Shown piece after piece: positions 29,663 through 64,000 of a stretch of 64,000 bases of DNA (position 1 is its first letter; each line of letters opens with the position of its first letter). The notes below the pieces were generated by a model. That model was not told the DNA's origin. It ran no database searches and saw only the letters and a program-made list of their open reading frames with translations. Source of the stretch: Candidatus Collierbacteria bacterium UBA2277 (GTDB lineage: Bacteria > Patescibacteriota > Microgenomatia > UBA1400 > MFAQ01); contig DDWV01000001.1 in the NCBI GenBank assembly GCA_002347045.1, positions 355,844-419,843 on the forward strand, in the 5' to 3' direction. The translations under genes were made by a program, and so were the position numbers.

Positions 29663-31441
29663 CAAGTCCGAGTTTATGACCGAGAACTCTCGATCAATAA
29701 AGTCGGATAAAATTGTTTCGGGCAGGTTCAAATAGATGTCAATCGTATTTGGTATCATTTGTCCTTCCTTTTTCTTGCCTGCTATTGAGTCTTCCTTAGT
29801 CTTTGGCCTTGAATGAACAACTACTTGATAAACAAGGTCGTGTATGAGGTCGTACAAAGCCTTCTGATCTGCCACCCTACCTTCTATCACCTCTTTATAT
29901 CTTTCTCTGTACTGATTAAGTCCGAGTTCGTAATCTTCTGATAAATATGATTGACTGATGCTGTAGTCAATTTCCTTTATTTTTTCTTGATACTCGCTGG
30001 CCTTTAGATTAAGTTCGGCTAGTTTCTCTTTTAGGGTATCTGTATCTATTATCATTAGCACAGCATGTTGATCTTGATAACCTTTTTTACGACCTGGTAT
30101 GCCATTGAGGAGGTCTATATAGTGTTGTCGTCTTACTTCCAGATCAGCCAGTACCTCACTTTCAAGTTTCTTTGATCTAAGATTTCTGGAATACTCGTAA
30201 ACATGTCTAGGGTCTTTTAGAAGTTCTTTTACGAACTCAACAACATAGTTTTCAAGAGCTTCGGCTGGAATGGGTATGGTGGGACAGGTCTCACTATTTT
30301 TTGTGTCATTCTTACGATTACATTGATAATAGTAGGAAAACTTGTGGGGTGAGTTTGTGAGTTTCTTCTTTACGCCTGTCCATGTTGAATACTTTTCATT
30401 TTCGTTTACATCTCGTTTGCAATGGTCGCATTTGAGAAGTGAAGACAATAGATAGAGATGGTCGTTTTCTTCTTTCTTTTTATTTAGATTTTTTCTATCC
30501 GCTATTTGCTTTACGTATGTTTGAGAGATTTCAAATATGTGGAGAGGAATAATTGGTTTATGCCTGTAGGGTGAAAGTTTCCAATCTTGCTTGGGTAACA
30601 GCTTTCCATAATGTGATTTGTTGTAGTAGTAGAAACCTGTGTAAATCTCATCGGAGAGAATATCTCTGATCTGACCTGACATCCAAAAGTTGTTAGGATT
30701 GAGTTTGTGAACTTCACCTTTTCGTTTGCCATACTTTACAGCAGATACCTCTGGGCTTAGTATGTTATCTTCTGCTAGTTTGTTAGCGATTATTTGATAG
30801 CTCAATCTATCAAGAACGAACGTCTTGTAAATTCTTTTGACTATTTCTGCCTCTGCTTTCAATATGGCGATTTTGCCTTCTTTGTCTTTGATGTAGCCAT
30901 AAGGCGGATGAGTTCCCATGAACTTACCTTGTGATACAGCCGCCTCCTTACCCTTTGAAGTTCTTTCTTTAATTGTTTCAAGTTCAAGCTCCGCAATGAC
31001 TCCTAATATGCCCAACATGGCTCTTCCAAAAGGTGATGAAGTGTCAATACTTTCGGTAGCAGAAATGAACTCTAGTTTGTGCTTTTTGAATAGGTCGAGA
31101 ACTTCGAGTAAGATTTTTAGCTTACGAGCAAACCTGTCAATTCTGTAAACAGCGATAACATCGAAGGGCAAACCATCTTCTGAGTTGCTTATGTCCTCAA
31201 TGATTCTTGAAAAGGCAGGTCTCTCATTTAGGTTCACCACTCCGCTGACCCCATCGTCTGAGTAAATGTAGTTTTTGTCTGCGAGAACCATAGCTGGACG
31301 ACCATCTTTGAGCAATCCCCTGGACTTGATCGCCGCCTCGATCGTGCTTCTTTGAGCGTCTAAGCCATACTTTTCAACCTGTTCATCAGTTGAGACTCTG
31401 AGGTAGATTGCTACCCTGAGCTGTTTCTCGTCATTATCCAT
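29660..31441 (-). mobile_element. large serine recombinase / integrase CDS (resolvase-like catalytic domain, recombinase domain, zinc ribbon); its stop codon overlaps the 3' end of tRNA-Glu
   Basis: 593 aa. N-terminus VAIYLRVSTDEQ with the catalytic Ser. Large C-terminal extension with a Cys cluster (CDHC...C). TGA stop at 29660-29662 overlaps the last 3 nt of the tRNA. Confidence 0.9.
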
Positions 31442-31651
31442 TTATCTATATTTCTCTAATAAGTTCTCGGTAATCAATCTCTATTTAATCATAATAATTG
31501 TTTTCAGGCTAATTGGTAGAGAATGGGCAGGAACACTACCGAGTGACTGAGGAGAGTACGTGACAAGCCTGCCTGGCTGTTTTTGTGTGTTTTGATGAGT
31601 CATAAAATGCCAAAACCGTGCCTATTTGTTCCTATGTATTAGACCTATAAC

Positions 31652-31680
31652 TTGACAAATGTTGTTTTGTGTGGTATTAT
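31652..31680 (+). promoter_or_regulatory. consensus sigma70-type promoter: TTGACA (31652-31657), 17-nt spacer, TATTAT (31675-31680)
   Basis: Read directly from the sequence. Lies about 55 nt upstream of the AGGAGG SD (31729-31734) and the ATG at 31740. Confidence 0.6.
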
Positions 31681-31739
31681 ATGACAGTTCTTTGAATCAA
31701 CTAATCCGTCCAATTCAGCTCAAACCAAAGGAGGCTATC

Positions 31740-32099
31740 ATGCCTAAGAACGATAAAATGATCGGTTTGTCTCTCTCTCTCTGCGTTTCCCAGATTGCTC
31801 GTGGGGAAGTGAAAGAAGAAGATGTCGAGAAGATCATCGCCGCCACCAATGCCCCCGACCTCGCCACTTTCGAAGAAGTTATCGCCAGCTACTGCGAAAC
31901 CTACTGGCACGACTACCCCGAAAAGGCTCGCGAGATCGCGATGCGTTTCTGGAACAATGGCAATGTTGATCAGCCTCGCACCCGCGGCGAAGATTGCCAC
32001 TATATCGGCGCAGGCAAATGGATGGATCACGAACAAAACACCTTCCACTATGTGGACGGCAAGCGGCAGTATTCAGGCGAGAAGTTACGCGCCTGGTAA
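31740..32099 (+). CDS. hypothetical protein encoded by a compositionally alien (GC-rich) gene
   Basis: I prefer the internal start MPKNDKMIGLS... (120 aa), which has a perfect AGGAGG SD 6 nt upstream; the ORF track begins at 31659. Local GC is ~53% against ~30-37% in the flanks (counted on two 60-nt lines). No family recognised. Confidence 0.5.
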   Translation: MPKNDKMIGLSLSLCVSQIARGEVKEEDVEKIIAATNAPDLATFEEVIASYCETYWHDYPEKAREIAMRFWNNGNVDQPRTRGEDCHYIGAGKWMDHEQNTFHYVDGKRQYSGEKLRAW

Positions 32100-32103
32100 C
32101 CAT

Positions 32104-32149
32104 CCCCCCAAGTAAGGAGAAATCTCCTCGCAAGGGGGGATTTTCTTTT
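32104..32149 (+). terminator. intrinsic terminator: CCCCCC...GGGGGG outer stem with inner GGAGA/TCTCC hairpin, then ATTTTCTTTT
   Basis: Starts 5 nt after the TAA of the GC-rich gene. The T-tract is on the + strand only. Confidence 0.6.
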
Positions 32150-32154
32150 GTCTG

Positions 32155-32586
32155 CTATTGATTGCTATTATTTGTTTTTATCCTTAGCTCACCTTCGAGT
32201 TTTTCTATGTGCTGTTTGAGATCAAGGTTGCCTGTGTTCATCATTTTGGAGTTTCTCTTTTGGGCTTTGTCAATTAAGGCTAGAGAAATAGCTTTGATGG
32301 CGAGATTGATGTACATGGCGATTACACTGGCCGTTTTATTGCTTGTATTATTTGCCCTAACATCATTTATCACCTGTTCAATTAAGTAAACTATATCTTC
32401 GTTGTTTCTGAGAATAATAGGCTCTTGGTCTGCATAACTTCTTTTAAGACTTTTGCCTCCGTTCATTACTGCCTCTAGGTGTTTATCTTTGTGCTTCTCG
32501 GAATGAGAGAAGCAAAACTCGTCATCTTTGACGGCGTAAGCATTACACTGACTGCCGTCTGGTTTGATAAAGTTACATGTTTTCAT
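32155..32586 (-). CDS. hypothetical protein with N-terminal Cys-rich (zinc-ribbon-like) segment
   Basis: 143 aa. C4, C14 and C25 followed by SH, then a charged helical region. Island cargo. Confidence 0.45.
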   Translation of the reverse strand: MKTCNFIKPDGSQCNAYAVKDDEFCFSHSEKHKDKHLEAVMNGGKSLKRSYADQEPIILRNNEDIVYLIEQVINDVRANNTSNKTASVIAMYINLAIKAISLALIDKAQKRNSKMMNTGNLDLKQHIEKLEGELRIKTNNSNQ

Positions 32587-32625
32587 ATTTGTTTGGTTAG
32601 ATAAGCTAGTGGGGTTGTTAATAAC

Positions 32626-32662
32626 AAAAAACCCAGATTATACAACTATGTAGCCTGGGTTA
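32626..32662 (-). terminator. intrinsic terminator on the minus strand (AACCCAG...CTGGGTT stem, then UUUUUUG on minus-strand RNA)
   Basis: Sits between the 32787..33119 gene and the 32155..32586 gene. Confidence 0.5.
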
Positions 32663-32786
32663 TCTCTCTATCGGCAATCGCTTGCCCCTCTTAGTTTCTC
32701 GTTTAATTACTAAGATTCGGATTGTTTAGCAAACAATCAAAAGTAACTTGTTAATAATTTCAGTTTAGCCCATTTATCCAGCTCAA

Positions 32787-33119
32787 TCAAATATCAATCG
32801 ACGGATTTCCATTCTGTTTCTCGATTTTCTTGCCTCTAATTTCCATGTGGATTTTATGTAGAAGTGAAAATCCTAAGTCCATTGTGGACATGAACTTTAC
32901 ACTGAGTTGTTTGACTGGACTCTGAGGAGTATCGAAGTTAATTACTTTTGTGTTAGGGTGTTCGAGAATAGTACCAGGCTTGACAAGCTGTCGTATAACG
33001 TCCTTTAGTAGAGGTAAGTCTTCGATTGATTGTTTTGCTTGTGGAGATTTTGTCCTGTTTGCCATGGCTGATTCTTCCAAGCCCTTTAAGAAGGTTTTCA
33101 ATTTCTCGTTGTCGTTCAT
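32787..33119 (-). CDS. hypothetical protein
   Basis: 110-aa ORF. No motif recognised. Island cargo. Confidence 0.4.
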   Translation of the reverse strand: MNDNEKLKTFLKGLEESAMANRTKSPQAKQSIEDLPLLKDVIRQLVKPGTILEHPNTKVINFDTPQSPVKQLSVKFMSTMDLGFSLLHKIHMEIRGKKIEKQNGNPSIDI

Positions 33120-33249
33120 TCTTACCTATTCTAACAATCTTGCTGTCTATTTGCTTGTGGGTGAATACGAGCATGAACTTATTCGAGTTGTTGAGAGTGA
33201 CTATCTTTTTGTCGGGGAGTTCCTGGTCATAAATGCGATCTGACACTTT

Positions 33250-33840
33250 GTGAATTTTCGCTCTCGTCAGGATACATGCTATCATTTTATGGTGAGACCC
33301 GATAATGACAACCCAAATTTGAATTTCGAAATAATTCAACTTCCAGTATCTGACTGGAGGAAATATAAATCTCTTCGGCTTGAAGCTTTGAAAACCGACC
33401 AACAAGCTTTTGCAAAGACATATGATGATGAAGCTACATATCCTGATGAAAAATGGATAGAAAGAATTGAACGAACTAAAAGTGGAGATGCCTGGATGTA
33501 CTTTGCCAAAGATACGGATACTGATGAGCTTGTAGGGATGATTGGAGGATATAGAGATGAAGAGAACCGAGCAAAGCACTCAGCCCAAATCTGGGGAGTA
33601 TATGTTCACCCTTCTCGTAGAGGAAAGGGATTATCTAGTTTATTAATGAGTAGAATTTTGACTGAGTTTGAGAAAAATGAAGATATTGCAAAAGCTGTAT
33701 TGGAAGTAAATGTAGATCAGCCTTCGGCAATGAAACTTTATGAAAAGTTTGGCTTTTCTGTAATAAATAGATTTACCTGCACACTCGGGGATGGAAAAAA
33801 GCATGAAGTGTGTATTATGGAAAAAGAGTTGAAACGATAA
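33250..33840 (+). CDS. GNAT family N-acetyltransferase
   Basis: 196 aa. Acetyl-CoA pocket motif RRGKGLSSLLMSRIL. Typical GNAT length. The true start may be an internal Met. Confidence 0.75.
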   Translation: MNFRSRQDTCYHFMVRPDNDNPNLNFEIIQLPVSDWRKYKSLRLEALKTDQQAFAKTYDDEATYPDEKWIERIERTKSGDAWMYFAKDTDTDELVGMIGGYRDEENRAKHSAQIWGVYVHPSRRGKGLSSLLMSRILTEFEKNEDIAKAVLEVNVDQPSAMKLYEKFGFSVINRFTCTLGDGKKHEVCIMEKELKR

Positions 33841-53638: not shown

Positions 53639-54482
53639 TATCTTTGCAGATACTAGCGATATTTTTTAATATTAGAGATTTTTCATTTTCGTCTAGGAGA
53701 TCGTGGGTTTGATTGTTGAGTATTGCTGTCTTTAGTCTCGAACAAGTCACTATTCCAAGATCTAACAAAAATTTTATTTTGTTTTTTGGCACTTCACTGA
53801 GTAAAGTGACCGGATGCAACCCTGAAGAAACTATCATGTCCTGCAAACTTTTTCCTTTTGGGTATGTCCAAGTAGTGACTTTTTGACCGACACAGTTGCA
53901 GTAACTTTCTACATCTGAGGTAACTTTTGTATTGGTTACAAGCCAAGAATGGTTTTTTACTGGATTATTGGTGCCTCCTTGAGCGTTATCAATGTCTAAA
54001 AATCTTGAGTGTGTATATAAAGCAACTTGTATATCTGTTTTGTGACCGGGGTTGTTGTGAAACTTGCACTCAATGTAGTTTTTTTCTTCTTTTTTTAAGG
54101 CGATAACATCGACTTCATGGGTGACACATTTTCCCTGAGTCACTACACCAACCTCTGTCCTGTAGCCATCCATCTTTAAGATATCTGAAAATAAAATCTC
54201 GAAGGGGAAACCAGACGGTCCCATGGCCATTACAGCTCTTTTTAGACCATAGTTAAAGTAATTATTGACTGGTGCGTTTTGATGTAAAAATGAAAAAAGG
54301 TGACCATATATAGCGTCGGTAGAGATTCCTGGCTTGAGATGGTGTCTTAGGTGGTCAACTGCGCGAGAAGTGGTATCGAGTGACAGTCCCGATGAAGCAA
54401 GGGATCTAATTACTTTCTCTTCACTGTAAGGCTCTGTTGTGCCAGAGGCCTTGATGACATTGATAGGACGTAAATTTTGCAT
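53631..54482 (-). CDS. ATP-cone domain fused to restriction-endonuclease-fold (Mrr-like PD-(D/E)xK) domain
   Basis: 283 aa. N-terminus INVIKASGTTEPYSEEKVIRSL is ATP-cone-like (compare NrdR/RNR VIKRDGTxExFDxxKI). Central ...GYRTEVGV..HEVDVIALK..YIECKFH matches the PD-(D/E)xK arrangement. Confidence 0.5.
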   Translation of the reverse strand: MQNLRPINVIKASGTTEPYSEEKVIRSLASSGLSLDTTSRAVDHLRHHLKPGISTDAIYGHLFSFLHQNAPVNNYFNYGLKRAVMAMGPSGFPFEILFSDILKMDGYRTEVGVVTQGKCVTHEVDVIALKKEEKNYIECKFHNNPGHKTDIQVALYTHSRFLDIDNAQGGTNNPVKNHSWLVTNTKVTSDVESYCNCVGQKVTTWTYPKGKSLQDMIVSSGLHPVTLLSEVPKNKIKFLLDLGIVTCSRLKTAILNNQTHDLLDENEKSLILKNIASICKDNG

Positions 54483-54589
54483 CTAACTTTATAATAGCAG
54501 GTTGGCCATTTTGAATATGGTAGCGATCAGAAGATCGTGCTTTGAATGATTGATTAGAAAGTAAACTGAATATAGGTTAAAATTGTAGT

Positions 54590-55831
54590 ATGAAAATGAG
54601 TAAGATGGGCATTCGCCCAGAAAAGACATCCCCTAGAGATGCTGAGTCGATAAATCATAAACTTTTAGTACAAGCTGGCTTTATTCACCAAGAGATGGCT
54701 GGCGTTTATTCTTTTTTGCCTTTAGGTCTTCGAGTTTTGAATAAAATTGAAGGCATAGTGAGGAAGCACATGGACGAAATAGGATCAGAGCTATTGATGC
54801 CGGCTTTGTCCCCAAAAGACTACTGGAGAACTACTGGAAGGCTTGAAACAATAGATGTTTTGTTTAAGGCTTGTGCTGCAAATGAAGTATCTTTGGCAAA
54901 AAGTGATTCTGAGTATATTTTGTGTCCTACACATGAAGATGTGGTAACACCTCTCATTCAGGCATATAACCCCAGCTACAAAGACTTACCGATAACAGTG
55001 TATCAGATACAGACAAAATTTCGGAATGAACCAAGAGCCAAGTCGGGACTACTTAGATGTCGCGAGTTTCGTATGAAAGATCTGTATAGCTTCCACACTG
55101 ATGAGACAGACCTAAAAAAGTTTTATGAGGATGCAAAAAGAGTGTACATGGATATATTTAACGAGATTGGAATTGGAGATGATACTGTAGTGGCGCTTGC
55201 TTCTGGAGGAGACTTTACCAAGGATTATTCTCATGAATTTCAGACTCGCTGTGATAATGGTGAAGATACTATCTATTTTGACAAGACAACAAAAATTGCT
55301 TACAACAAAGAGGTTAAGCCAGAAGGTGCAGATAATAATCCAAATTTTGAAGTGTATAGCGCCTCTGAAGTTGGAAACATCTTCCCTTTGGGAACGAAGT
55401 ACTCCAAAGCATATGGCTATGAGTATACGGACAAAGATGGATCTAAAAAACCGGTTGTTATGGGTAGCTATGGATTGGGAACAAGCAGACTAATGGGTGT
55501 GTTGGTTGAGAAGTTCCATGATGATAAAGGAATTATCTGGCCAAAGAATGTAGCACCATTCTCAGTTCACTTAATAGACTTGCAGCAAACTGACGAAGCA
55601 CAAAAATGCTATGACAAGTTAAAAAAGAATGGCATAGATGTTCTCTGGGATGATCGAGATCTTAGCGCAGGTGAAAAGTTTGCAAATGCAGACTTAATAG
55701 GATGCCCTGTGAGAGTGGTAATCTCAAAGAGGAGTCTTGACCAAGAAGGACTAGAAGTAAAACTGAGAAATGAATCTGAAAGTAAAATTATTTCTTCTGA
55801 TAACTTGAAGGAATTTATTGAAAATGTTTGA
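54590..55831 (+). CDS. proS: prolyl-tRNA synthetase (compact form without the large editing insertion)
   Basis: 413 aa. Class II motifs (FRNEPRAKSGLLRCREFRMKD, GSYGLGTSR). C-terminal anticodon-binding domain. Confidence 0.9.
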   Translation: MKMSKMGIRPEKTSPRDAESINHKLLVQAGFIHQEMAGVYSFLPLGLRVLNKIEGIVRKHMDEIGSELLMPALSPKDYWRTTGRLETIDVLFKACAANEVSLAKSDSEYILCPTHEDVVTPLIQAYNPSYKDLPITVYQIQTKFRNEPRAKSGLLRCREFRMKDLYSFHTDETDLKKFYEDAKRVYMDIFNEIGIGDDTVVALASGGDFTKDYSHEFQTRCDNGEDTIYFDKTTKIAYNKEVKPEGADNNPNFEVYSASEVGNIFPLGTKYSKAYGYEYTDKDGSKKPVVMGSYGLGTSRLMGVLVEKFHDDKGIIWPKNVAPFSVHLIDLQQTDEAQKCYDKLKKNGIDVLWDDRDLSAGEKFANADLIGCPVRVVISKRSLDQEGLEVKLRNESESKIISSDNLKEFIENV

Positions 55832-56498
55832 GATTGCTGGAATTTCTTTTCACTGGTATGGCCTTTTGATAGGGATAGGGACTTGGATTGCGATGGAGAT
55901 AGCTTTGATCAATCCAAAAAAAATCCAAAAGACACTCCTCGAATCTTCTATGTGGTGGACTATTGCGGGTGGAGTTGTGGGGGCAAGAGTTTATCATGTA
56001 ATTGACTTTTGGAATCAGTATTACTCTGCTAATTTCAGTAGAATATTTTATCTTTGGGATGGAGGACTTGGGATATTTGGGGCATTGGCTGGAGGAATGA
56101 TGGGGTTGGGAGCTTTTTGTGTTTTTAACAAACAAAAGTACTGGATTATGACTGACTCTTTGGTAGTTGGGATCCCTTTGGCGCAAACTATTGGAAGACT
56201 AGGAAATTGGATAAATGGAGAGCTGATTGGAAAGAATGGAGAGCCTTTGTTTGCTATTGAAGGGGCCCTTAACTTGGCGTTGTTCCTTTTACTTATTTTT
56301 GCCTCAGAAAAAAATCTTAAAACTGGACAACTTACCGGGGTGTATTTCTTGGGATACTCTGTAATAAGATTCTTTTTGGAACAAATGAGACCCATAGAGG
56401 CAATCTGGATGATTGGCAGTATTCCTACAGCTCAGATATTTTCACTGGTTTTTGGAGTAACAGGACTATGGCTTATTTTCCGGAAAAAACAATCTTAA
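55818..56498 (+). CDS. lgt: prolipoprotein diacylglyceryl transferase
   Basis: 226 aa. HWYGLLIGIG N-terminal signature, G-rich TM segments, GRLGNWINGE. Confidence 0.8.
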   Translation: MKMFEIAGISFHWYGLLIGIGTWIAMEIALINPKKIQKTLLESSMWWTIAGGVVGARVYHVIDFWNQYYSANFSRIFYLWDGGLGIFGALAGGMMGLGAFCVFNKQKYWIMTDSLVVGIPLAQTIGRLGNWINGELIGKNGEPLFAIEGALNLALFLLLIFASEKNLKTGQLTGVYFLGYSVIRFFLEQMRPIEAIWMIGSIPTAQIFSLVFGVTGLWLIFRKKQS

Positions 56499-58839
56499 CG
56501 ACGTCGTCCATACTGCCTACAAAACTAAATTTAAGATCATTTCTTACCTTTTCAGGAAGGTCTACCAGATTTTTTTCGTTGTCTTTAGGCAGAATTATTC
56601 TCTTTATCCCTGCTCTGTGAGCTGCGACAACTTTTTCTCTTACTCCACCTATCTCCAGTGCCCTACCCCTGAGAGTTACTTCGCCTGTCATAGCTAAATC
56701 TTTGGGAACTGACTTTCCGGTAAGGGCGGAGACTATTGCTGTAGTGATCGCCAGGCCTGCGCTTGGACCATCTTTGGGAACTGCTCCTTCTGGAACGTGA
56801 ATATGGATGTCTGTTTTGGCAATTCTGGAGTCTTTGATGCCCAGAGAGTCACTGTGTGAACGAACATATGAAAAAGCAGCTTTTGCCGATTCTTTCATAA
56901 CGTCCCCCAGCTGACCTGTAAGTATAATTTTGCCTTGACCGTGCATAACGGCGACTTCAATAAATAAAATATCTCCTCCAGCTCTTGTATAAGCTAGCCC
57001 AGTGACCAATCCAACCTGGTCTTTTTCTTCAGCAAGTGTGTGACTATATATAACAGGTCCAAGATATTTACTAATTTTTTGTTTTGTAATTGAGATGGGG
57101 AGGTCTGAAGAAGAAGCTTTTGCTCTTGCTATCTTTCTCATAATTGAGGCTATTTGACGCTCTAGATTTCTGACACCCGCTTCTCTGGTGTAGTGACGAA
57201 CTAGGAACCTTAGAATATTTGATGAAAGTACAAAATCTTTTAGGCTGATAGCGTTTGCTTCTGCCTGCTTTTTGATGAGATATTTCTTTGCAATTGAGAA
57301 TTTTTCTTCCTCAGTGTAGCCTGAAAATTCGATAACTTCAAGACGATCTCTGAGCGCTGCAGGAATAGTGTCTAAGACATTGGCTGTAGTAATAAACAGA
57401 ACTTGAGAAAGATCAAAGGGGATATCTAAATAGTGATCTTGAAAAGCAAAGTTTTGTTCTGGGTCGAGGGCTTCAAGTAGAGCCGAGCTAGGATCGCCGC
57501 GGAAATCAGCACCTATTTTGTCTATTTCATCTAGCATAAAGACGGGGTTACTAACTCCGCTGTCTTTAATTGACTGAATTATCCTTCCCGGCATAGCCCC
57601 AACATATGTTCTTCTGTGGCCACGAATTTCTGCTTCATCTTTTAGACCACCTAGTGACATTTTGACAAATTTTCTGCCGATGGCCTTTGCAATTGAACGC
57701 CCGACTGATGTTTTTCCAACACCGGGAGGCCCAACAAAACAAAGAATTGTCGGGGGGTTAACTGCTTGTTTCTTTGTTTTTTTAACCAGGTCATTTTTTA
57801 GCTTCAAAACTGCAATATATTCCAGAATTCTTTCTTTAACTTTTTCTAGTCCATAGTGGTCTTGGTTTAAAATTTTTTCTGCTTTTATTAGAGAGTAATT
57901 ACTTTTTGTGAGACTGTTCCAAGGAAGTTCTAAAACTGTTTCTGTCCAGGTACGAAGATACGAAGTTTCTGGATTGTGAACAGATAGCTTACTAAGACGT
58001 TTTAGCTCTTTGGATACTTTTGTGTGTATTTCTTGAGGAAGTTTAGCGCTTTTAAGTTTGTTTCTAAGTTCTGTGATTTCCTCTTCTTCGTTCCCCTCTC
58101 CGAGTTCTTTTTGGATAGCTCTCATTCGCTCTCGAAGAACAGCTTCTTTCATACTTTCGTCAAAGTGCTTTTGGGTTTTGTTTTCGATCTTTTTTTCTAG
58201 TTCTAGAATTTTTATCTCGTCGGTGAGATGCTCGTTGACAAAAGATAATCTGCTGCTGAGTGAGTTATTTTCCAGAAGTTTTTGCTTACTGTCGTTTTTT
58301 ATGTCTAGGACTGAGGAAATTTGGTGAGATATAAGCAAAGGGTCTGAACTACTGGATATTTTTGACAAGACACCCGGCTCTACATTGACCTTTCCTAGCT
58401 CAACAGCTCTTTTTATCTGAGCAACAGCTCTTTTTGAGAGGGCTGATATTTCGTTGGTTACATTGTTGTCTTCAGGAAGTTCTTCTACGGTAGCCCAGAC
58501 CAATCCATCTTTTTCTTCTAGGTTACTGATTCTTACACGGAATAATCCACGAACTATTGCATGAAGCTCTTCGTTGACAGGAAGCGTCTTTACTATGCGA
58601 CAAACAGTGCCAATAAAATAGTAGTCGTCTAAACTTGCGGCATTAATTCTGGGATCTTTCTGCGAGACAAAACAGACCTCCCTGTTACTTGTGAAGGCAT
58701 TATTGATACCGGCGATAGACACTGGCCTACCAAAGGTAAGGACAGCTTCTGTATCTGGAAAAATTACTCCTTCTCGTAAACCAATGAAGGGTACTATTTT
58801 TGAGGAATCTGATTTTTTTACAGGTTCGGTTACTGACAT
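56473..58839 (-). CDS. lon: ATP-dependent Lon protease
   Basis: 788 aa. LON N-domain. AAA+ GPPGVGKTS. Catalytic Ser in PKDGPSAG and Lys in TGEVTLRGRA. Confidence 0.95.
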   Translation of the reverse strand: MSVTEPVKKSDSSKIVPFIGLREGVIFPDTEAVLTFGRPVSIAGINNAFTSNREVCFVSQKDPRINAASLDDYYFIGTVCRIVKTLPVNEELHAIVRGLFRVRISNLEEKDGLVWATVEELPEDNNVTNEISALSKRAVAQIKRAVELGKVNVEPGVLSKISSSSDPLLISHQISSVLDIKNDSKQKLLENNSLSSRLSFVNEHLTDEIKILELEKKIENKTQKHFDESMKEAVLRERMRAIQKELGEGNEEEEITELRNKLKSAKLPQEIHTKVSKELKRLSKLSVHNPETSYLRTWTETVLELPWNSLTKSNYSLIKAEKILNQDHYGLEKVKERILEYIAVLKLKNDLVKKTKKQAVNPPTILCFVGPPGVGKTSVGRSIAKAIGRKFVKMSLGGLKDEAEIRGHRRTYVGAMPGRIIQSIKDSGVSNPVFMLDEIDKIGADFRGDPSSALLEALDPEQNFAFQDHYLDIPFDLSQVLFITTANVLDTIPAALRDRLEVIEFSGYTEEEKFSIAKKYLIKKQAEANAISLKDFVLSSNILRFLVRHYTREAGVRNLERQIASIMRKIARAKASSSDLPISITKQKISKYLGPVIYSHTLAEEKDQVGLVTGLAYTRAGGDILFIEVAVMHGQGKIILTGQLGDVMKESAKAAFSYVRSHSDSLGIKDSRIAKTDIHIHVPEGAVPKDGPSAGLAITTAIVSALTGKSVPKDLAMTGEVTLRGRALEIGGVREKVVAAHRAGIKRIILPKDNEKNLVDLPEKVRNDLKFSFVGSMDDVVKIVFSGK

Positions 58840-58986
58840 AGTTTTAAGATTTTAGCAGAAAGATATGTAATTTGCTAATGATTTATTGATTAAGAAACCT
58901 GAGCCCAAGAAGGATGGTTGCTAGAATGGCCATAAAAGTTACGAGTGTGAAAAATGTAAAGGAAAACTTAGAGTTTTTTGTCATTT

Positions 58987-59442
58987 TTAGTTTGAAGTAA
59001 CTTTGATAGTTTTTTCCTCGGACCAAAGATGATTCTCCCCAACTTTGGCATAGGCTCTAAAGAAAACTTTTCCTGAGTCGGAGAACTTGATGTTAAGATC
59101 AAAAGTATCTGGAAGCTTGAAAGAGCCAGAGTAATAATCATTTAATCGATTTGGATAGCCAACGGCATCAGGCGAGTCTGTGATTAAAAGGCCGCTAGGG
59201 GAAGAGATTGGGCCCCAAAAAATTGTAGTGTCTGTGGCAATTTGATCTGGAGAGGTTTTTATCTCCCAAGAAAATGACCCAGAGTTTCCTGTCTTTACGG
59301 TTTCAGGGTATGATTTGAGAGTTATCTCTTGTGGTGATCGACCTGTGTCTTTTAGGCTTTTCTGGGCTGACTGGTAGTTGTAATAAATTAGACACAAAAA
59401 TAGAAGAATGGCTAAATATAAATAGTTTGTTTTATTTTTCAT
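58987..59442 (-). CDS. hypothetical secreted protein
   Basis: 151 aa. Signal/TM YLYLAILLFLCLIYY. Confidence 0.4.
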   Translation of the reverse strand: MKNKTNYLYLAILLFLCLIYYNYQSAQKSLKDTGRSPQEITLKSYPETVKTGNSGSFSWEIKTSPDQIATDTTIFWGPISSPSGLLITDSPDAVGYPNRLNDYYSGSFKLPDTFDLNIKFSDSGKVFFRAYAKVGENHLWSEEKTIKVTSN

Positions 59443-59891
59443 ATTTTGTCTGAGTCTAAAACAATAGTTACTGGCCCATTTAGGTTTACTTTTATGTCCA
59501 TGTGCTCGCCAAAAAAGCCTGTTTTTACCTTAAGTCCCACTTTAGTTAGTTTATCAGCAAACTGCTGATAGAGAGGAATCGCAATTTCTTTGTCGGCAGC
59601 TAGATAAAAACTTGGGCGGTTGTTGCCCTTGACATCTCCAAGGAGAGTAAATTGTGAAATTAGAAGGATCTCTGATTTGACAGTGAGAATGTCTAAGTTC
59701 ATTTTTTTGTCTTCATCAGGAAAGATGCGAAGCTTAAGTAGCTTTGAAGCTAACTTATCTACCGTTTTTTCTGTGTCTGATTTTGAAATACCTAAAAAAA
59801 CAATTAAACCCGACCTTGTTGCCCGCTTGGTTTTGGGCATGTCTTTTATGCAGACTGAGGCAGAGTCTACCAACTGTACGATAGCAATCAT
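59439..59891 (-). CDS. dtd: D-aminoacyl-tRNA deacylase
   Basis: 150 aa. SQFTL motif, NRPSF, C-terminal GPVT. Confidence 0.85.
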   Translation of the reverse strand: MIAIVQLVDSASVCIKDMPKTKRATRSGLIVFLGISKSDTEKTVDKLASKLLKLRIFPDEDKKMNLDILTVKSEILLISQFTLLGDVKGNNRPSFYLAADKEIAIPLYQQFADKLTKVGLKVKTGFFGEHMDIKVNLNGPVTIVLDSDKI

Positions 59892-59950
59892 ATGGTTTGA
59901 TTATAGTGGCATTTAGGGCACATTAGGCAAGTATTGTTTGAGAAATAAAA

Positions 59951-61111
59951 CTATTTTGAAGTGAAGTATATTTTGCCTTTCAGCTGATCTGGAAGTAGAT
60001 CTGAGTCTGTGTACATTTCATAGTCTTTTCCATAGCCGAGCTTTTTCATAAGCTTTGTAGGGGCATTTCTGAGATTTAGAGGTATTGGTAAATTTCCAAA
60101 CTGAGCAACATCTGCTTGGGCGGCACGAAACCCGTTGTAGACTGAGCGATTCTTTGGAGAGTTTGAGAGGTATACAACACCATGGGCCAAGTTAATGGCA
60201 CATTCTGGGTAGCCGATGGTTTCACAGGCTCTAAAGACGTCGTTGGCAACAACTAGTGCGGTTGGCTGAGCAATACCAATATCCTCCGAAGAAAAGATAA
60301 CCATGCGACGGGCGATAAATAGAGGGTCTTCACCGGAGTCAACCAGCCGTGCCAGGTAATATAGAGCAGCATTTGGGTTGCTGGCTCTCATGGACTTAAT
60401 GAAAGCCGATATGGTGTTGTAGTGTTCTTCTCCTTGTTTGTCAAAACGAAGAAAACGAGATTGAAGAGCTGTTTTGAAGTTTTCTACAGTTAGTTCTCCA
60501 TACAACGAAGCAGTAGATTCGATAAGACCAATAGCTTGTCGGGCGTCTCCATTTGCAAATATTGATAACCATTCTTTAGCTTCTTTGTCTGTTTTTAGTT
60601 TTAGGACTTTAATGGCACGAGAGATAATTTTCTCAATTTCTTTAGCTGAAAGCTCGTTAAGAACAAACACACGGCACCGCGAAAGCAATGGAGCGATGAT
60701 TTCAAAACTAGGGTTTTCTGTAGTAGCTCCGATTAAAGTTAGCTTACCTCTTTCAACAAACGGAAGAAGAAAGTCTTGCTGAGCCTTGTTGAAGCGATGG
60801 ATTTCATCAAGAAAAAGAACTACTGGTTTTTCTGTTTTTTCGGTGTTGTTTAGTATTTCTCGAATGTCGTTTTTACCAGCTGACACGGCGGATAGCTCAT
60901 AAAAATCTGCCTCAATAGCATCTGAGTAAATTCTGGCGATAGTAGTTTTACCGGTACCAGGAGGACCCCAGAGAATAAAGGAAAAAATGTGTTTGTTTTC
61001 GATAGCTTGACGTAGAGGCTTCCCTTTTCCAACTAGATGCTCTTGACCAACATACTGACTGATTGTGCTTGGGCGAATTTTTGAAGCAAGAGGTTCTATT
61101 AGGTTTGACAT
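59951..61111 (-). CDS. rarA: replication-associated recombination protein A (MgsA/RarA AAA+ ATPase)
   Basis: 386 aa. GPPGTGKTT Walker A. FLDEIHRFNKAQQD. C-terminal MgsA helix domain. Confidence 0.9.
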   Translation of the reverse strand: MSNLIEPLASKIRPSTISQYVGQEHLVGKGKPLRQAIENKHIFSFILWGPPGTGKTTIARIYSDAIEADFYELSAVSAGKNDIREILNNTEKTEKPVVLFLDEIHRFNKAQQDFLLPFVERGKLTLIGATTENPSFEIIAPLLSRCRVFVLNELSAKEIEKIISRAIKVLKLKTDKEAKEWLSIFANGDARQAIGLIESTASLYGELTVENFKTALQSRFLRFDKQGEEHYNTISAFIKSMRASNPNAALYYLARLVDSGEDPLFIARRMVIFSSEDIGIAQPTALVVANDVFRACETIGYPECAINLAHGVVYLSNSPKNRSVYNGFRAAQADVAQFGNLPIPLNLRNAPTKLMKKLGYGKDYEMYTDSDLLPDQLKGKIYFTSK

Positions 61112-61183
61112 TTTCGGTTTTTATTTGGGTATAGTCTATATTATGATGATTTTAAAACAGTGTCAAGGGCTATGCACATAAAA

Positions 61184-61210
61184 AAATCAGCCCCTCTATG
61201 GGGCTGAAAA
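61184..61210 (-). terminator. intrinsic terminator on the minus strand (CAGCCCC-auaga-GGGGCUG followed by AUUUUUUU)
   Basis: 12 nt downstream of the 61222..61608 gene stop. Confidence 0.65.
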
Positions 61211-61221
61211 TGATACTAAAC

Positions 61222-61608
61222 TCATTTTTTTATTTCATCTTGAAGATCTTTGAGAGAACTCATATGTTCTGCAAGAACTGACTTTGCTGTTTCAAAAAGC
61301 TTGTCTTTTGGCATTTCCGTAACTACGCCATAAGTTTCTGAAAATTTATCTATTGACATTAGCTCAATTGTTTCTTGGTCGTTTAACATGACTATTACGA
61401 GTATCGCAGGGTCACTCTCAACCAAAGATGATGATGATGATGAGGGGATATCAAGATTGCAGAGATCAAGCTTTATTGCGCTTGATTTGGCTATGAGGGT
61501 CTTTGCGCACCACGTTTGTGATGGATAAGTAGTGATACAAAGAACTAACCATAGCTCTGTGTCCTGATTGGGTGAGAGTCTTTTTTTTCCTTCATTGAAA
61601 AGGGCCAT
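61222..61608 (-). CDS. hypothetical protein
   Basis: 128-aa ORF followed by a clean terminator. Confidence 0.4.
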   Translation of the reverse strand: MALFNEGKKRLSPNQDTELWLVLCITTYPSQTWCAKTLIAKSSAIKLDLCNLDIPSSSSSSLVESDPAILVIVMLNDQETIELMSIDKFSETYGVVTEMPKDKLFETAKSVLAEHMSSLKDLQDEIKK

Positions 61609-61748
61609 TTATACCTCCTGAGTATTGTTGTATTATAGGGCCAGAACTGTAAAGTGTCAATGAAGCTGGTCTAATCGTCTTATTGCTTGATAGTGAGTCG
61701 TGGATAGTTAACGTAAGGTTTGATGTGATTTGTGTTAAAATATGGGAT

Positions 61749-62237
61749 ATGACATATTTCAATCGAGGAGGATTCGGAGGTGGTCAAGGAGGAAGACCAA
61801 GTTACAACAATCGTGATTCAGGAAGACAGGAAATGCACAAGGCTACCTGTGAAGAATGCGGTAAAGACTGCGAGGTTCCTTTTAGACCCAATGGCAGCAG
61901 ACCAGTATACTGTAGTTCTTGTTTTGAGGCTAGAGGTGGAGGAAGCTCTGATAGACCTCAGTCTAGAGATTATGGCCGAGATAACTCACGAAGTTTTGGA
62001 AGAGATAGCTATTCCCCAAACAGAGGTAACAGAGATGAAAGACCGGCGTCAAGACAAGTTGACTATTCTGGAGATTTTGCAGCTTTGAACAAAAGAATTG
62101 ACAAAGTAGTAGAGCTTCTGTACGTACTTAAACAACAGAACCAGGGTGATGATGTAGTAGAAGTAAAAAAAGAATCAACTAAAAAAGCACCTAAAAAAAT
62201 AGTTAAGAAGGCAAAGAAAAAGACACTAAAAGTTTAA
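61749..62237 (+). CDS. Gly/Arg-rich CxxC...CxxC zinc-ribbon protein with basic C-terminal tail
   Basis: Start placed at the internal ATG (MTYFNRGGFGGGQGG...). CEECGKDCEV..16 aa..CSSC treble-clef-like pattern. KK-rich C-terminus. Followed by a terminator. Confidence 0.5.
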   Translation: MTYFNRGGFGGGQGGRPSYNNRDSGRQEMHKATCEECGKDCEVPFRPNGSRPVYCSSCFEARGGGSSDRPQSRDYGRDNSRSFGRDSYSPNRGNRDERPASRQVDYSGDFAALNKRIDKVVELLYVLKQQNQGDDVVEVKKESTKKAPKKIVKKAKKKTLKV

Positions 62238-62258
62238 TCTATCTTTTTTACAAAAAAA

Positions 62259-62283
62259 GCTGGAGATACTCCGGCTTTTTTTG
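62259..62283 (+). terminator. intrinsic terminator GCTGGAG-ata-CTCCGGC plus T8
   Basis: Lies 22 nt after the 61749..62237 stop. It also lies inside the annotated 3' end of the 62234..63910 ORF, which argues that this tail is not coding. Confidence 0.65.
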
Positions 62284-62313
62284 TGCTTAAAATGGTAGAA
62301 TATACGGGTACAT

Positions 62314-62385
62314 TGCCGGATCGTCTAATGGTAGGACGTCGCCCTCTGGAGGCGAATATTCTAGGTTCGAGTCCTAGTCCGGCAA
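62314..62385 (+). tRNA. tRNA-Gln (anticodon CTG)
   Basis: Manual fold. U1:A72 acceptor TGCCGGA/TCCGGCA, which is a bacterial tRNA-Gln hallmark. D-arm GTCT-AATGGTA-GGAC. Anticodon stem TCGCC/GGCGA with loop CTCTGGA. T-arm CTAGG-TTCGAGT-CCTAG. Discriminator A. G37 is atypical. Confidence 0.7.
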
Positions 62386-62460
62386 CAGAAAGGGATTCCC
62401 CGCCCGTTTTCGTGGTAGTCGCCCGCGCGCCCGCCCACGCGCGGAGCGATGCGAAGGGCT

Positions 62461-62480
62461 TTTCCCATTCCACAATAATC
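62461..62480. repeat. left copy of 20-bp imperfect inverted repeat gcggagcgatgcgaagggct
   Basis: Its reverse-complement partner at 63981-64000 reads gcggagcgatgctcagggct, an 18/20 match. Both copies are GC-rich in an AT-rich background. Confidence 0.6.
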
Positions 62481-63980
62481 TGTTTATCTTTCAAAAAGAA
62501 GTTCGAACCGATGTTTTGGACGAAGATCCGCAGATCTGAGTCCACGGAACCCTTGCGCGCGATTTTTTGCGCCATTATGGCACTATTTACAAATTTAGAA
62601 AAAGGTTCGAGCCAACTACAACCTTCTTCCTCTGTTTTGGATATCTGTTGCTCAAGCTTTAGCTTTTCTTGGAATAATTGACTCTTTTTGGTTTTGTAGA
62701 CATCGGAATCAACTGTGCCGTCCAGATATCCATCGAGTAAGACATTGAGTTTGGTATCAAAGCTTTCGGTTTGAGTATGAAGCAAAGCGAGAACTTTTTC
62801 TTTGGACTCATCCGCTAGGACTTTATCTTGTGCCAAACGAGTTTTCCACTCAGATTGCCAAGATCTGGGGAGGGCGGAGGACTTAACCTGACTCTTTAAT
62901 TGACCGAAGAGTTTGTTTTCTTCCAGATACGGCTGAGAGCAGGCCTTAATTTTCTTAGTACAGCGGTAGTAAATATATTTGACTGTTCTGTTTGTTCTAC
63001 GATAGTTTTTGATATGTTGCTCAGCCGTGATGGTAGCGCCGCACTCACCACACCGCATTAGTCCAGAAAAAGCAAAGTCGTGACTGGTTTCTCTTGGTCG
63101 AGAAAGCTTTTTGGTTCTTTCTTGTACTTTCTCAAAAAGTTGTTTGCTGATGAAAGTCGGGTGGGAAGCCGGAAACTCCTCGCCATTAAACTCCATCGTG
63201 CCGATGTAGAACTTTTTCTTAAACATCTGAGATATTTTGTCGATTTTGAGAGGCTTCCCCTTGCCCGACTGGATTCCATTGTCAAAAAGAAAACGAGTGA
63301 TACCTGCGAAAGAAGTTTTCCCTTCAGCAAACAACTCAAAAGCTTTCTTGATTATTTTTGCTTTTTCCGGATCGATGTCAATCGATTTGTTCTCCACTAT
63401 ATTCTTGTAGCCAAGAGGGGCTTTGTTCGGCCAAACGCCATTCCGTAACTTTTGTCGATTACCTCGCTTTACATTTTCACTTAGGTTATCGACATAGTAT
63501 TTAGACTGGCCAAAAGCGATGTTGAGCATAAACTTGCCTTGAGGGGTGTTTTCAAACCAAAACGATGGGAATTTCAGATCAACGATTATGCCAGTATCAA
63601 CGAGGTAGATTATTTGTCCGCCATCGACCGAGTTTCTGGCCAGTCTATCTGGGTGCCAACTGAGAATGGCGTTGGCTTGGCCGGACTGGAGAAGCTTCAT
63701 CATTTGCTGAAAGACTAATCTTCCAGGTTCTTTGGCCGTTTTGCTTTCAACTAATGTTTCGACAATGTGAAGCTTCTCCCTCTTGGCGAATTCTTTGAGT
63801 TCGGCAATCTGAGCCTCAATCGACAAAACTTGTCGATCCTTCTCATCTGTGGACTTCCGACAGTACGCAATGTACTTTGTCATACATTCATTTAACCATA
63901 AATTACCCAAAGCTTCCGCAGAAGTTTACCGAATTCATTTTTGCGTTTTCTGTCGCTTTTTGAAAGATACAGATTATTAA

Positions 63981-64000
63981 AGCCCTGAGCATCGCTCCGC
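63981..64000. repeat. right copy of inverted repeat (agccctgagcatcgctccgc); truncated by window end
   Basis: See the partner at 62461-62480. The repeat may extend beyond the window. Confidence 0.6.

What the first reader, a model, noticed from the sequence alone, without database searches (positions are those of the whole stretch)
62234..64000. Second serine recombinase bracketed by 20-bp inverted repeats; ORF tail swallows tRNA-Gln, a terminator and a GC-rich patch
Seen in sequence: a 72-nt tRNA-Gln(CTG) at 62314-62385 and a rho-independent terminator at 62259-62283 both lie inside the last ~80 codons of the 62234-63910 ORF. That ORF tail therefore translates structural RNA or terminator sequence and is almost certainly not real protein.

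Immediately 3' of the tRNA is a sharply GC-rich ~90-bp patch (62390-62480). It ends in gcggagcgatgcgaagggct, whose inverted partner (18/20) is the last 20 bases of the window.

The repeats enclose ~1.4 kb that encodes exactly one large serine recombinase. That makes this a minimal IS-like or integrative unit inserted ~75 bp downstream of tRNA-Gln. Alternatively the repeats are the attL/attR cores of a larger element that continues past the window.
Basis: seen in the sequence. Interest (0 to 1): 0.65.

Follow-up and report, generated by a model that had tools for sequence, protein, structure and literature searches.

The report
Flippable integrase split at tRNA gene
The repeat-bracketed recombinase next to tRNA-Gln is the left end of a mobile island whose integrase gene contains its own integration site. 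Inserting into the tRNA gene cuts off the enzyme's true tail, and a spare copy of that tail sits upside-down just upstream, in a cassette that can flip.

Summary

- **Source and family.** The window is 100% identical to a 647-kb contig, probably Candidatus Collierbacteria. The gene belongs to a very large family of Patescibacteria large serine recombinases.
- **Conserved architecture.** The gene always lies tail-to-tail against the 3' end of a tRNA gene; 13 isotypes were seen. It is flanked by 50-158-nt, mostly 97-100% identical IRs in 52 of 57 loci.
- **Boundaries.** An empty/occupied pair with 99.9-100% identical flanks gives attL = tRNA|B arm and attR = 'R-core'|host, with a CAACAGA direct repeat.
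- **Split gene.** In 34 of 34 loci the element supplies no stop codon. Read across attP, the frame ends in a conserved ~12-19-codon tail (..YEKIRTxF, stop, hairpin). Integration replaces it with antisense tRNA, predicted disordered.
- **Right arm.** It is neither an IS end nor attR. It is an intact, inverted second attP carrying a spare tail.
- **Flipping.** Two near-identical elements (L103, L104) carry the cassette in opposite orientations. In L104 the gene is full-length and co-directional with tRNA-Gln.

Who flips the cassette, and whether the tail controls activity, is inferred only.

The parts
62250..62284 (+). Intrinsic terminator hairpin of the upstream zf_Tbcl_2 gene. It is host sequence, not part of the element, and is only swallowed by the run-on ORF.
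   Evidence: 16-nt arms, 94% complementary, 3-nt loop. Folds at -22.3 kcal/mol, z = -6.4. The upstream gene matches Pfam zf_Tbcl_2.
62314..62386 (+). tRNA-Gln(CTG). It is the host target (left half of attB). Its T-loop TTCGA lies 17 nt from the junction.
   Evidence: ARAGORN; Rfam 63.9 bits. The same tRNA occurs with many different downstream sequences in 17 metagenome contigs.
62383..62389 (+). Crossover core 'O' (CAACAGA): the last 2 nt of the acceptor stem, the discriminator and 4 more nt. It is shared by attB, attL, attP and attR.
   Evidence: A 7-8-nt direct repeat flanks the island in L096 relative to the empty site L099. In 35 loci the far arm copies the tRNA-specific nucleotides.
62383..62498 (+). 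Left IR arm ('B arm'): the element-side half of attL. On the minus strand it encodes the recombinase's last beta-strands plus an Ala/Gly/Ser-rich linker.
   Evidence: No stop codon in the recombinase frame in 34 of 34 loci.
62418..62450 (.). The structure is conserved rather than the sequence.
   Evidence: Fold z = -3.2. In a 19-locus alignment, 6 of 7 pairs carry compensatory double changes.
62234..62382 (-). Run-on ORF tail with no function as protein. It translates antisense tRNA-Gln, a spacer and the host terminator.
   Evidence: pLDDT 30-47 with no secondary structure. Homologues show G[LIVF]EP, the antisense T-arm of their own tRNA.
62390..63883 (-). Large serine recombinase in its integrated (tail-less) form, ATG at 63883. 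The folded part is aa 1 to about 479, ending near 62447. Catalytic motif YCRKSTDEKDRQ, recombinase domain, zinc ribbon and a long coiled coil are present.
   Evidence: Pfam; AlphaFold; closest solved structure is SPbeta SprA, E = 2.6e-11; 7900+ homologues.
63937..63954 (-). 'c' motif GACAGAAAACGCAAAAAT in the recombinase 5' leader. It is conserved across the family. It is repeated, pointing outward, beyond the right arm (ext 64197-64214) and before another cargo gene.
63956..64000 (+). Inner part of the right IR arm, which continues to 64058 outside the window. It belongs to an intact, inverted second attP. Beyond the arm lies the 'R-core', which encodes the true tail VCYNEIRTYFRDHY, a stop codon and a hairpin.
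   Evidence: In this lineage the inner part has a 13-nt deletion and a TGA, while the outer 58 nt are identical to the left arm.

Best explanation
**What it is.** This is the tRNA-proximal end of a genomic island integrated at tRNA-Gln. The island spans about 6.3 kb, ext 62383 to about 68718. It was integrated by a large serine recombinase (LSR) whose attachment site attP lies inside its own ORF.

**Layout in the un-integrated element.** The gene reads: body, then linker (B arm, with a hairpin), then crossover core, then a conserved 12-19-codon tail ([LVI][YF]xK[IV]RTxF), then stop and terminator hairpin. The last three together are the 'R-core'.

**What integration does.** The crossover falls 2 nt before the tRNA discriminator.
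- The element's B arm restores the discriminator and the nucleotides that follow it.
- The R-core is carried to the far end of the island, where it forms attR.
- The recombinase ORF is left running into antisense tRNA.

**What the IR is.** The recombinase cassette is flanked by two inverted copies of attP. One copy is consumed by integration and gives the left arm. The other stays intact just upstream of the gene and gives the right arm plus R-core. That copy is a spare 3' exon.

**What flipping does.** Inverting the 1.5-kb cassette between the arms re-joins the gene to the spare tail and puts it downstream of the tRNA.

**Shown.** The architecture, the island boundaries, the missing stop codon, the conserved tail, and both cassette orientations in near-identical elements.

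**Inferred.**
- TTCGA(A) in the T-loop and in the tail codons I-R-T is the zinc-ribbon-domain DNA motif that lets the family target any tRNA.
- The tail matters for activity or directionality.
- The common orientation is a locked, 'suicidal' state and the flipped one a mobile state.
- The agent of flipping, RecA or the recombinase itself, is unknown.
For: **Family pattern**
- 56 recombinase copies are followed convergently by a tRNA, covering 13 isotypes.
- Long IRs are present in 52 of 57 loci.
- The IR's outer end sits about 2 nt before the discriminator and copies tRNA-specific nucleotides.
- A second, inverted R-core lies 0.65-8.3 kb away and ends at the core in 30 of 35 loci.

**Boundaries**
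- The island L096 867-4676 compares with the empty site L099 at 100% and 99.88% flank identity, with a CAACAGA direct repeat.
- R-core followed by host terminator also occurs in L088, L001 and L002.

**Split ORF**
- There are 0 in-frame stops in 34 of 34 arms, against 58 stops in the 68 other arm-frames. The stop codon always lies 4-370 nt beyond the element end.
- The attP reading gives a conserved tail and a stop in most of the 34 loci; the motif was extracted from 25 distinct sequences. The source reads VCYNEIRTYFRDHY*.
- Codon-position entropy is 0.58 at position 2, 1.01 at position 1 and 1.21 at position 3. Arg is encoded by CGA, AGA and CGC.
- In AlphaFold the attP-form tail is a helix at pLDDT 80-85. 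The integrated-form tail scores 30-47.

**Both forms exist**
- Tail-bearing proteins P0127, P0128, P0129 and P0135 sit in the same 90% cluster as the window protein. So do the tRNA-read-through members.
- L103 has attP modules on both sides of the gene and no adjacent tRNA.
- L104 runs tRNA-Gln, B arm, full-length recombinase, R-core.
- L103 6682-9927 equals L104 13377-10132 at 100% over 3246 nt, attached to opposite ends of the cassette.

**Motif spacing**
- TTCGA begins 17 nt from the junction in the tRNA and 21 nt in the P arm in the loci measured (L011, L013, L015).
- The LI integrase ZD motif sits at bp 11-19 in attB and 16-24 in attP (PMC3783163).
Against: - All 66 uncut recombinase copies in the 80 representative-genome loci are in the tail-less orientation. 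Flipping must therefore be rare, transient or counter-selected.
- L103 and L104 come from different samples. They show that an inversion happened, not that it is a regulated switch.
- L100-L102, which also show the flipped join, are short contigs that break inside the arms and could be assembly paths.
- Only 12-19 residues are lost, so the truncated enzyme may still work.
- The strong CGA bias for Arg means part of the tail's conservation may be a DNA-site constraint rather than a protein one.
- In the window's own lineage the inner part of the spare arm carries a 13-nt deletion and a TGA, and no intact distal attR was found up to ext 71111. This copy may be decaying.
- The repeated 'a-pal-c' pieces are unexplained.
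- No recombination was observed directly.
Confidence: 0.7

Rival explanations
1. Minimal IS-like transposon. The two repeats are terminal inverted repeats bound by the recombinase acting as a transposase, and the 1.6-kb unit moves on its own.
For: The repeats bracket exactly one recombinase gene. Many contigs break at the gene, as they do for multicopy elements. Some islands are small, with only 0.65-0.9 kb of cargo in L020, L065 and L048.
Against: The right arm is not at an element end. Homology among the source, L001, L002, L084 and L098 continues 156 nt beyond it. The mapped insertion ends are tRNA|B arm and R-core|host. No copy of the bare IR-to-IR unit was seen elsewhere in the window.
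Confidence: 0.04
2. The arms are the attL and attR cores of a larger element that continues past the window.
For: The element does continue past the window, and the left arm is part of attL.
Against: attL and attR share their core in direct orientation: CAACAGA on both sides of the L096 island. The two arms here are inverted. The right arm is joined to an R-core, so it is an unrecombined attP. The real attR in relatives is a second R-core kilobases away.
Confidence: 0.05
3. The integrative island has attP inside the ORF, but the second inverted attP is not a flip switch. It could be an alternative integration site (either orientation of entry), an operator for autoregulation, or a remnant kept identical by gene conversion. 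The L103/L104 difference would then reflect a rare homologous-recombination accident.
For: The un-integrated form L103 already has both attPs. L104 could arise from integration through the upstream attP of a flipped circle. L006 has real tRNA-Glu genes on both sides, as expected if the spare attP recombined with a second tRNA. Orientation is uniform in the genome bins.
Against: Any route from L103 to L104 still needs one inversion of the cassette relative to the cargo. The spare copy keeps an open tail-coding frame and 97-100% arm identity in most loci, which suggests it is used.
Confidence: 0.2
4. The 'conserved tail' is a by-product. The P-arm DNA is conserved as a recombinase binding site that mimics the tRNA T-loop. 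The protein really ends functionally near aa 479, and loss of the tail on integration is irrelevant.
For: 21 of 25 distinct tails use CGA for Arg, which preserves TTCGA. The motif lies in the zone expected for a ZD site.
Against: Variation is concentrated at third codon positions, and Arg is kept through CGA/AGA/CGC switches that break the DNA motif. The linker frame is kept open in 34 of 34 loci, which is needed only if translation must reach the tail. AlphaFold models the tail as a confident helix.
Confidence: 0.12

Closest known systems
Phage and ICE large serine integrases (SPbeta SprA, Listeria A118/LI, Bxb1, phiC31)
   Same: Same domain set: resolvase catalytic domain, recombinase domain, zinc ribbon with a coiled coil. 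The att core is short, with a sequence motif offset between the attB and attP half-sites. The best solved match is SprA.
   Different: The crossover lies inside the enzyme's own ORF. The target is the 3' end of any tRNA gene. Two inverted attP copies flank the gene. No separate directionality factor was identified.
Archaeal SSV-type 'suicidal' integrases (SSV1, pTN3, pT26-2)
   Same: The att site lies within the integrase gene, and integration into a tRNA gene breaks the gene (review PMC8371274).
   Different: Those are tyrosine recombinases, and the review calls the trait exclusive to archaea. Here the enzyme is a serine recombinase in bacteria, only the last 12-19 codons are removed, and a spare copy of the lost piece is kept in the element.
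Invertible segments that carry their own serine invertase (Salmonella Hin H-segment; Gin, Cin, Pin), and the yeast 2-micron plasmid with its FLP inverted repeats
   Same: A recombinase gene lies between inverted repeats and is found in both orientations. As in shufflon or tail-fibre systems, inversion changes which 3' coding end is joined to a gene (the comparison rests on general knowledge).
   Different: The repeats are 100-270 nt rather than 26-34 bp. The enzyme is a large serine recombinase, not a small invertase. The switched gene is the recombinase itself. The agent of inversion is unknown.
tRNA-targeting genomic islands with tyrosine integrases (Islander-type islands; tycheposons)
   Same: Insertion is at a tRNA 3' end, the element restores the tRNA end, and a displaced repeat marks the far end (PMC4383910 abstract).
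   Different: The shared core is only about 7 nt. The recombinase is a serine recombinase. One family covers at least 13 isotypes, apparently through the universal T-loop.
LSR transposons Tn4451/Tn5397 (TnpX, TndX) and IS607
   Same: A serine recombinase moves a small element through a circular form (general knowledge).
   Different: Those have no long inverted repeats and no tRNA targeting, and the ORF is not split.

Membership tests
Large serine recombinase (LSR) family | N-terminal resolvase catalytic domain with the catalytic-serine motif | tested here: met
   PF00239, E = 2.5e-20, residues 14-160 of the 558-aa TTG-start ORF. The motif YCRKSTDEKDRQ is read from the sequence, and S11 is invariant in A1.
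Large serine recombinase (LSR) family | Recombinase domain plus zinc-ribbon domain with an inserted coiled coil | tested here: met
   PF07508 and PF13408. AlphaFold gives long helices at 338-385 and 391-417 of the 512-aa homologue P0044. SprA is the best match in the PDB.
Large serine recombinase (LSR) family | Conservative recombination at a 2-nt crossover between about 40-50-bp att sites | not testable with these tools
   Only a 7-8-nt shared core could be delimited. The exact dinucleotide is not mapped.
Site-specific integrative island at a tRNA gene | Empty and occupied alleles with identical flanks and a short direct repeat | tested here: met
   L099 against L096: flanks 100% and 99.88% identical, repeat CAACAGA. 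This pair is a related, recombinase-less island at the same tRNA, not the window copy itself.
Site-specific integrative island at a tRNA gene | Intact attR at the far end of this particular island | tested here: not met
   No forward R-core was found up to ext 71111, only a partial copy at 66672-66801. Core synteny resumes at ext 68719.
'Suicidal' (SSV-type) integrases | att site inside the integrase ORF, so that integration breaks the gene | tested here: met
   No in-element stop codon in 34 of 34 loci. The conserved tail and stop are found only across attP. Full-length forms are seen in L103 and L104.
'Suicidal' (SSV-type) integrases | Tyrosine recombinase fold; archaeal host | tested here: not met
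   Serine recombinase domains. The relatives are Patescibacteria.
Insertion sequence or transposon with terminal inverted repeats | The inverted repeats are the element's termini | tested here: not met
   The right arm is internal.
Hin/Gin-type invertible segment | The segment is found in both orientations between the repeats | tested here: met
   L103 against L104. This is shown for 90%-identical relatives, not for the window's own population.
Hin/Gin-type invertible segment | Small serine invertase with a C-terminal HTH; 26-bp sites; Fis-dependent enhancer | tested here: not met
   The enzyme is a roughly 510-aa LSR and the arms are 100+ nt. An enhancer was not tested.

The most novel reading that the evidence does not exclude
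The element carries a self-contained directionality and mobility switch with no separate excisionase. The short C-terminal helix, tethered by a disordered linker, would act in cis on the coiled-coil and zinc-ribbon machinery.
- The full-length enzyme (circle, or flipped cassette) would carry out one reaction.
- The tail-less enzyme (usual integrated state) would carry out none, or the reverse reaction.
- Inversion of the cassette between the two attP copies would then toggle an island between 'locked' and 'mobile'.

Because the target half-site is the universal T-loop and the core merely has to match, the family would be a naturally retargetable integrase set for any tRNA gene.
Probability: 0.25. 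Interest if true: 0.9.

Novelty: new variant of a known kind. Interest (0 to 1): 0.8.

Why it matters
- **A trait thought exclusive to archaea.** A review (PMC8371274) describes integrases that break their own gene on integration as exclusive to archaea, and all described cases are tyrosine recombinases. This would be a bacterial, serine-recombinase counterpart, and a very abundant one, with thousands of homologues in Patescibacteria.
- **An added design feature.** A spare inverted attP and 3' exon inside an invertible cassette offers a testable answer to how a 'suicidal' integrase could ever excise again.
- **Genome engineering.** Large serine integrases are major genome-engineering tools. 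A family that appears to read the universal T-loop and needs only a matching core would be of practical interest.
- **CPR genomics.** It explains why MAG contigs so often break next to tRNA genes. It also shows that gene callers report hundreds of recombinase 'C-termini' that are really antisense tRNA.

Tried and rejected
- **Exact-protein look-ups.** Look-ups of the recombinase with three alternative starts or ids found nothing. The source contig was reached through the neighbouring RarA-like gene instead.
- **Rfam.** Nothing matched the GC patch, the R region or the sequence downstream of empty sites.
- **R-core as a tRNA-like RNA gene or degraded tRNA.** Rejected. ARAGORN and Rfam find nothing, and the 'pseudo T-loop' is explained by the codons I-R-T.
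- **GC hairpin as a standard terminator.** No U-tract follows it on either strand, so its function is left open.
- **The far side as a decayed inverted second recombinase gene.** The order of the pieces (a, then R-core, then B) does not fit. This is only partly resolved by L103, where 'a-pal-c' is part of a 273-nt IR.
- **A model with two independent circles (recombinase cassette and cargo), each with a palindromic attP.** It reproduces the junctions, but no tRNA|R-core junction was seen among 17 tRNA-Gln loci.
- **Literature.** Five searches found no description of this family or architecture.
- **Other copies.** No further copy of the arm exists in the window.
- **Consensus terminator scan.** It missed the 62250-62284 hairpin.
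Full report
**1. The observation**

The window ends in a zinc-finger gene (stop at 62237) followed by a strong bidirectional terminator hairpin at 62250-62284. The hairpin folds at -22.3 kcal/mol, z = -6.4. After it comes tRNA-Gln(CTG) at 62314-62386.

On the opposite strand is a 549/558-aa ORF, 62234-63883/63910, with the three Pfam domains of a large serine recombinase (LSR). The ORF runs through a 65%-GC patch, the tRNA and the terminator.

The repeat therefore runs off the window end.

**2. Source and full extent of the repeat**

The neighbouring RarA-like protein led to contig L081 (JGI 3300040971, 646,801 bp). L081 is 100% identical to window 54001-64000. A second contig, L082, stops at window 62452, inside the repeat. 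That is a typical assembly break.

In extended coordinates the arms are 62383-62498 and 63956-64058. They are 87% identical with an 11+2-nt indel, and the outer 58 nt are identical. The left arm begins at CAACAG: the last two acceptor-stem bases, the discriminator and three more bases of the tRNA region.

Closest relatives are Candidatus Collierbacteria (L002 at 88%, L001 at 90%).

**3. A family-wide architecture**

The protein has more than 7900 homologues and at least 593 loci in representative genomes, nearly all Patescibacteria.
- 56 copies are followed, tail to tail, by a tRNA gene. Thirteen isotypes are represented.
- 52 of 57 loci have an IR of 50-158 nt, mostly 97-100% identical. One arm covers the ORF's last ~30 codons up to the tRNA. 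The other lies 50-100 nt upstream of the start codon.
- The outer boundary falls about 2 nt before the discriminator. The far arm copies the tRNA-specific bases: TCACCA, GCACCA, CGACCA, CAGCCA and so on.
- Beyond the far arm lies a conserved 'R-core': a GC hairpin followed by GTTCGAATTTTTTCGTAAA-like sequence that ends at the boundary.
- In 30 of 35 loci a second R-core, 93-100% identical and inverted relative to the first, lies 0.65-8.3 kb further on. It ends at the same core.

**4. Where the element ends**

Seventeen metagenome contigs share this exact tRNA-Gln 3' half but have many different downstream sequences.

L099 and L096 form an empty/occupied pair. Their flanks are 100% and 99.88% identical, and L096 carries a 3.8-kb insert bounded by a CAACAGA direct repeat. 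The insert starts with the B arm next to the tRNA and ends with an R-core next to host DNA.

This gives the four sites:
- attB = tRNA 3' end | host.
- attP = R-core | core | B arm.
- attL = tRNA | B arm.
- attR = R-core | host.

That island has no recombinase. It carries a KilA-N-like protein, an M48-like peptidase and an Erm-like methyltransferase; these names rest on sequence motifs I read in the translations, not on a database search. It must therefore be a deletion derivative or be mobilised in trans.

In the source, homology with L001, L002, L084 and L098 covers ext 62295-64214 only. Core synteny with L096 and L099 resumes at ext 68719. The island is thus about 6.3 kb. Its cargo includes a pP_pnuc_1 nuclease and an HNH protein. 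No intact attR was found.

**5. The ORF is split by integration**

In 34 of 34 loci the recombinase frame has no stop codon inside the arm, and the stop lies 4-370 nt beyond the element end. The other two frames carry 58 stops in 68 arm-frames.

Reading the same frame across an attP junction (arm, core, R-core) gives a conserved peptide of roughly [LVI][YF]xK[IV]RTxF and, in most of the 34 loci, a stop after 11-19 codons. The motif was extracted from 25 distinct sequences. The source reads VCYNEIRTYFRDHY*.

The 'pseudo T-loop' GTTCGAAT is the antisense of the codons I-R-T. Variation is greatest at third codon positions (entropy 1.21, against 0.58 at second positions). Arg is kept through CGA, AGA and CGC. 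This pattern indicates selection on the protein, although the CGA bias suggests an added DNA constraint.

AlphaFold results agree:
- In the attP-form homologue P0044, the last beta-hairpin is at 459-470, a low-confidence linker follows, and a C-terminal helix at 493-511 scores pLDDT 80-85.
- In the window's integrated form, everything after about aa 479 scores pLDDT 30-47 and has no secondary structure.

The linker is encoded by the GC patch. At the nucleic-acid level this is a hairpin with compensatory changes in 6 of 7 pairs.

**6. What the right arm is**

The right arm plus R-core is a complete attP in inverted orientation, sitting between the recombinase leader and the cargo. It therefore holds an unused copy of the tail, stop codon and hairpin.

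L103 (26 kb) shows the un-integrated arrangement. The recombinase is flanked on both sides by attP modules (273-nt IR, 90% identical), with no adjacent tRNA.

L006 has real tRNA-Glu genes on both sides. This is what would result if the spare attP had recombined with a second tRNA.

**7. The cassette inverts**

Within the window protein's own 90% cluster, some members read into a tRNA (P0126, P0131, P0134, P0136). Others end ...VVCYNEIRTYFRDRY* (P0127, P0128, P0129, P0135).

L104 (13.4 kb, k141 assembly, arms 126 nt at 98.4%) has this order: tRNA-Gln, then B arm, then leader, then full-length recombinase co-directional with the tRNA, then arm, then R-core, then cargo.

L103 6682-9927 is 100.000% identical over 3246 nt to L104 13377-10132, but this block is joined to the opposite end of the recombinase cassette. 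The cassette itself aligns directly at 97.7%. Any route between the two requires an inversion between the arms.

The short contigs L100-L102 show the same join, but they break inside the arms and carry less weight.

All 66 uncut recombinase copies in the 80 representative-genome loci are in the tail-less orientation.

**8. Mechanism proposed (inference)**

The LSR probably reads TTCGA(A) as its zinc-ribbon-domain motif.
- In the loci measured (L011, L013, L015), the motif begins 17 nt from the junction in the tRNA (attB-type half-site) and 21 nt from it in the P arm.
- The LI integrase motif sits at bp 11-19 in attB and 16-24 in attP (PMC3783163).
- Because every tRNA has this T-loop and only the core must match, lineages can move between isotypes.

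Integration through the attP that the ORF reads into removes the tail and yields the common, stable state. Flipping the cassette, or entering through the other attP, gives a complete gene downstream of the tRNA promoter.

Three things are untested:
- whether the tail controls activity or directionality;
- whether RecA or the LSR flips the cassette;
- why the arms stay identical within a locus yet differ between loci.

**9. Comparison with known systems**

The protein is an LSR by every sequence and fold test applied.

The closest functional analogue is the archaeal SSV-type 'suicidal' tyrosine integrase, which a review calls exclusive to archaea (PMC8371274). The present case is bacterial, serine-type, removes only the tail and keeps a spare.

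The flanking IR and two orientations recall Hin/Gin segments and the 2-micron plasmid. The enzyme class and the repeat length differ from both.

It is not an IS with terminal repeats. Five literature searches found no description of it.

**10. Verdict**

The tail is indeed junk, and the element is integrative and extends beyond the window. The nature of the repeats was misread.
- This is a new variant of a known kind and is of high interest.
- The window's own copy may be partly decayed, given the indel and TGA in the spare arm and the missing attR.

Noticed in passing
window 29663-31441 (-) and tRNA-Glu 29589-29663 (+): The window's other large serine recombinase (593 aa; Resolvase, Recombinase and Zn_ribbon_recom) is only distantly related (E = 2.9e-11 to the family profile). 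It also ends exactly at the 3' end of a tRNA gene. No inverted repeat of 20 nt or more lies within 29400-33500, so tRNA-end targeting by LSRs in this genome is wider than the IR architecture.
   Followed up: partly
window 8627-8710 (-): A cyclic-di-GMP-II riboswitch aptamer scores just above Rfam's gathering score, 54.9 against 53.5 bits.
   Followed up: no
window 62504-62520 and 63937-63954; L081 6898-6952 (ext 64160-64214): The short pieces 'a' (codons QNIGSN at the recombinase 3' end) and 'c' (5'-leader motif GACAGAAAACGCAAAAAT) recur beyond the right arm. There they are joined by a 20-nt palindrome, ATGGCTACCGCAGTAGCCAT. In most loci 'a' is 15-30 nt and 100% identical. In L103 the trio forms the outer part of a 273-nt IR. 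Its origin and role are unexplained.
   Followed up: partly
L081 4311-4440 (ext 66672-66801): A partial, direct-orientation copy of the R region (part of the R-core plus a-pal-c) follows an HNH gene and precedes another cargo gene. The 'c' motif followed by CCTATAGT may be a promoter module reused in front of cargo genes.
   Followed up: partly
L006 9802-11588: A family member is flanked by real tRNA genes on both sides, tRNA-Glu(ttc) upstream and tRNA-Glu(ctc) downstream. This fits the spare attP having recombined with a second tRNA gene, implying a chromosomal rearrangement.
   Followed up: partly
L104 1-6700: The contig with the flipped copy also carries a Replic_Relax relaxase, a DUF87/TraG-like ATPase, a bAvd protein and a second LSR (525 aa) that ends in tRNA-Gly. 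This suggests conjugative or mobilisable elements in Patescibacteria stacked at a tRNA cluster.
   Followed up: no
L096 867-4676 (tRNA-sense orientation, as used): A recombinase-less island with correct attL and attR, polymorphic against an empty site at 99.9% flank identity. It carries an Erm-like rRNA methyltransferase, an M48-like peptidase and a KilA-N-like protein. These names rest on motifs read in the translations, not on a search.
   Followed up: partly
proteins P0015-P0027, P0033: Homologues of about 870-930 aa, at 42-49% identity over about 88% of the query. They are almost twice the usual length, and at least P0033 ends with the true tail. The extra part was not examined.
   Followed up: no
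L001 11502-13364 (-) and tRNA-Leu 11511-11592 (+): Another unrelated-looking 620-aa serine recombinase ORF runs into a tRNA-Leu gene right next to the tRNA-Gln island.
   Followed up: no
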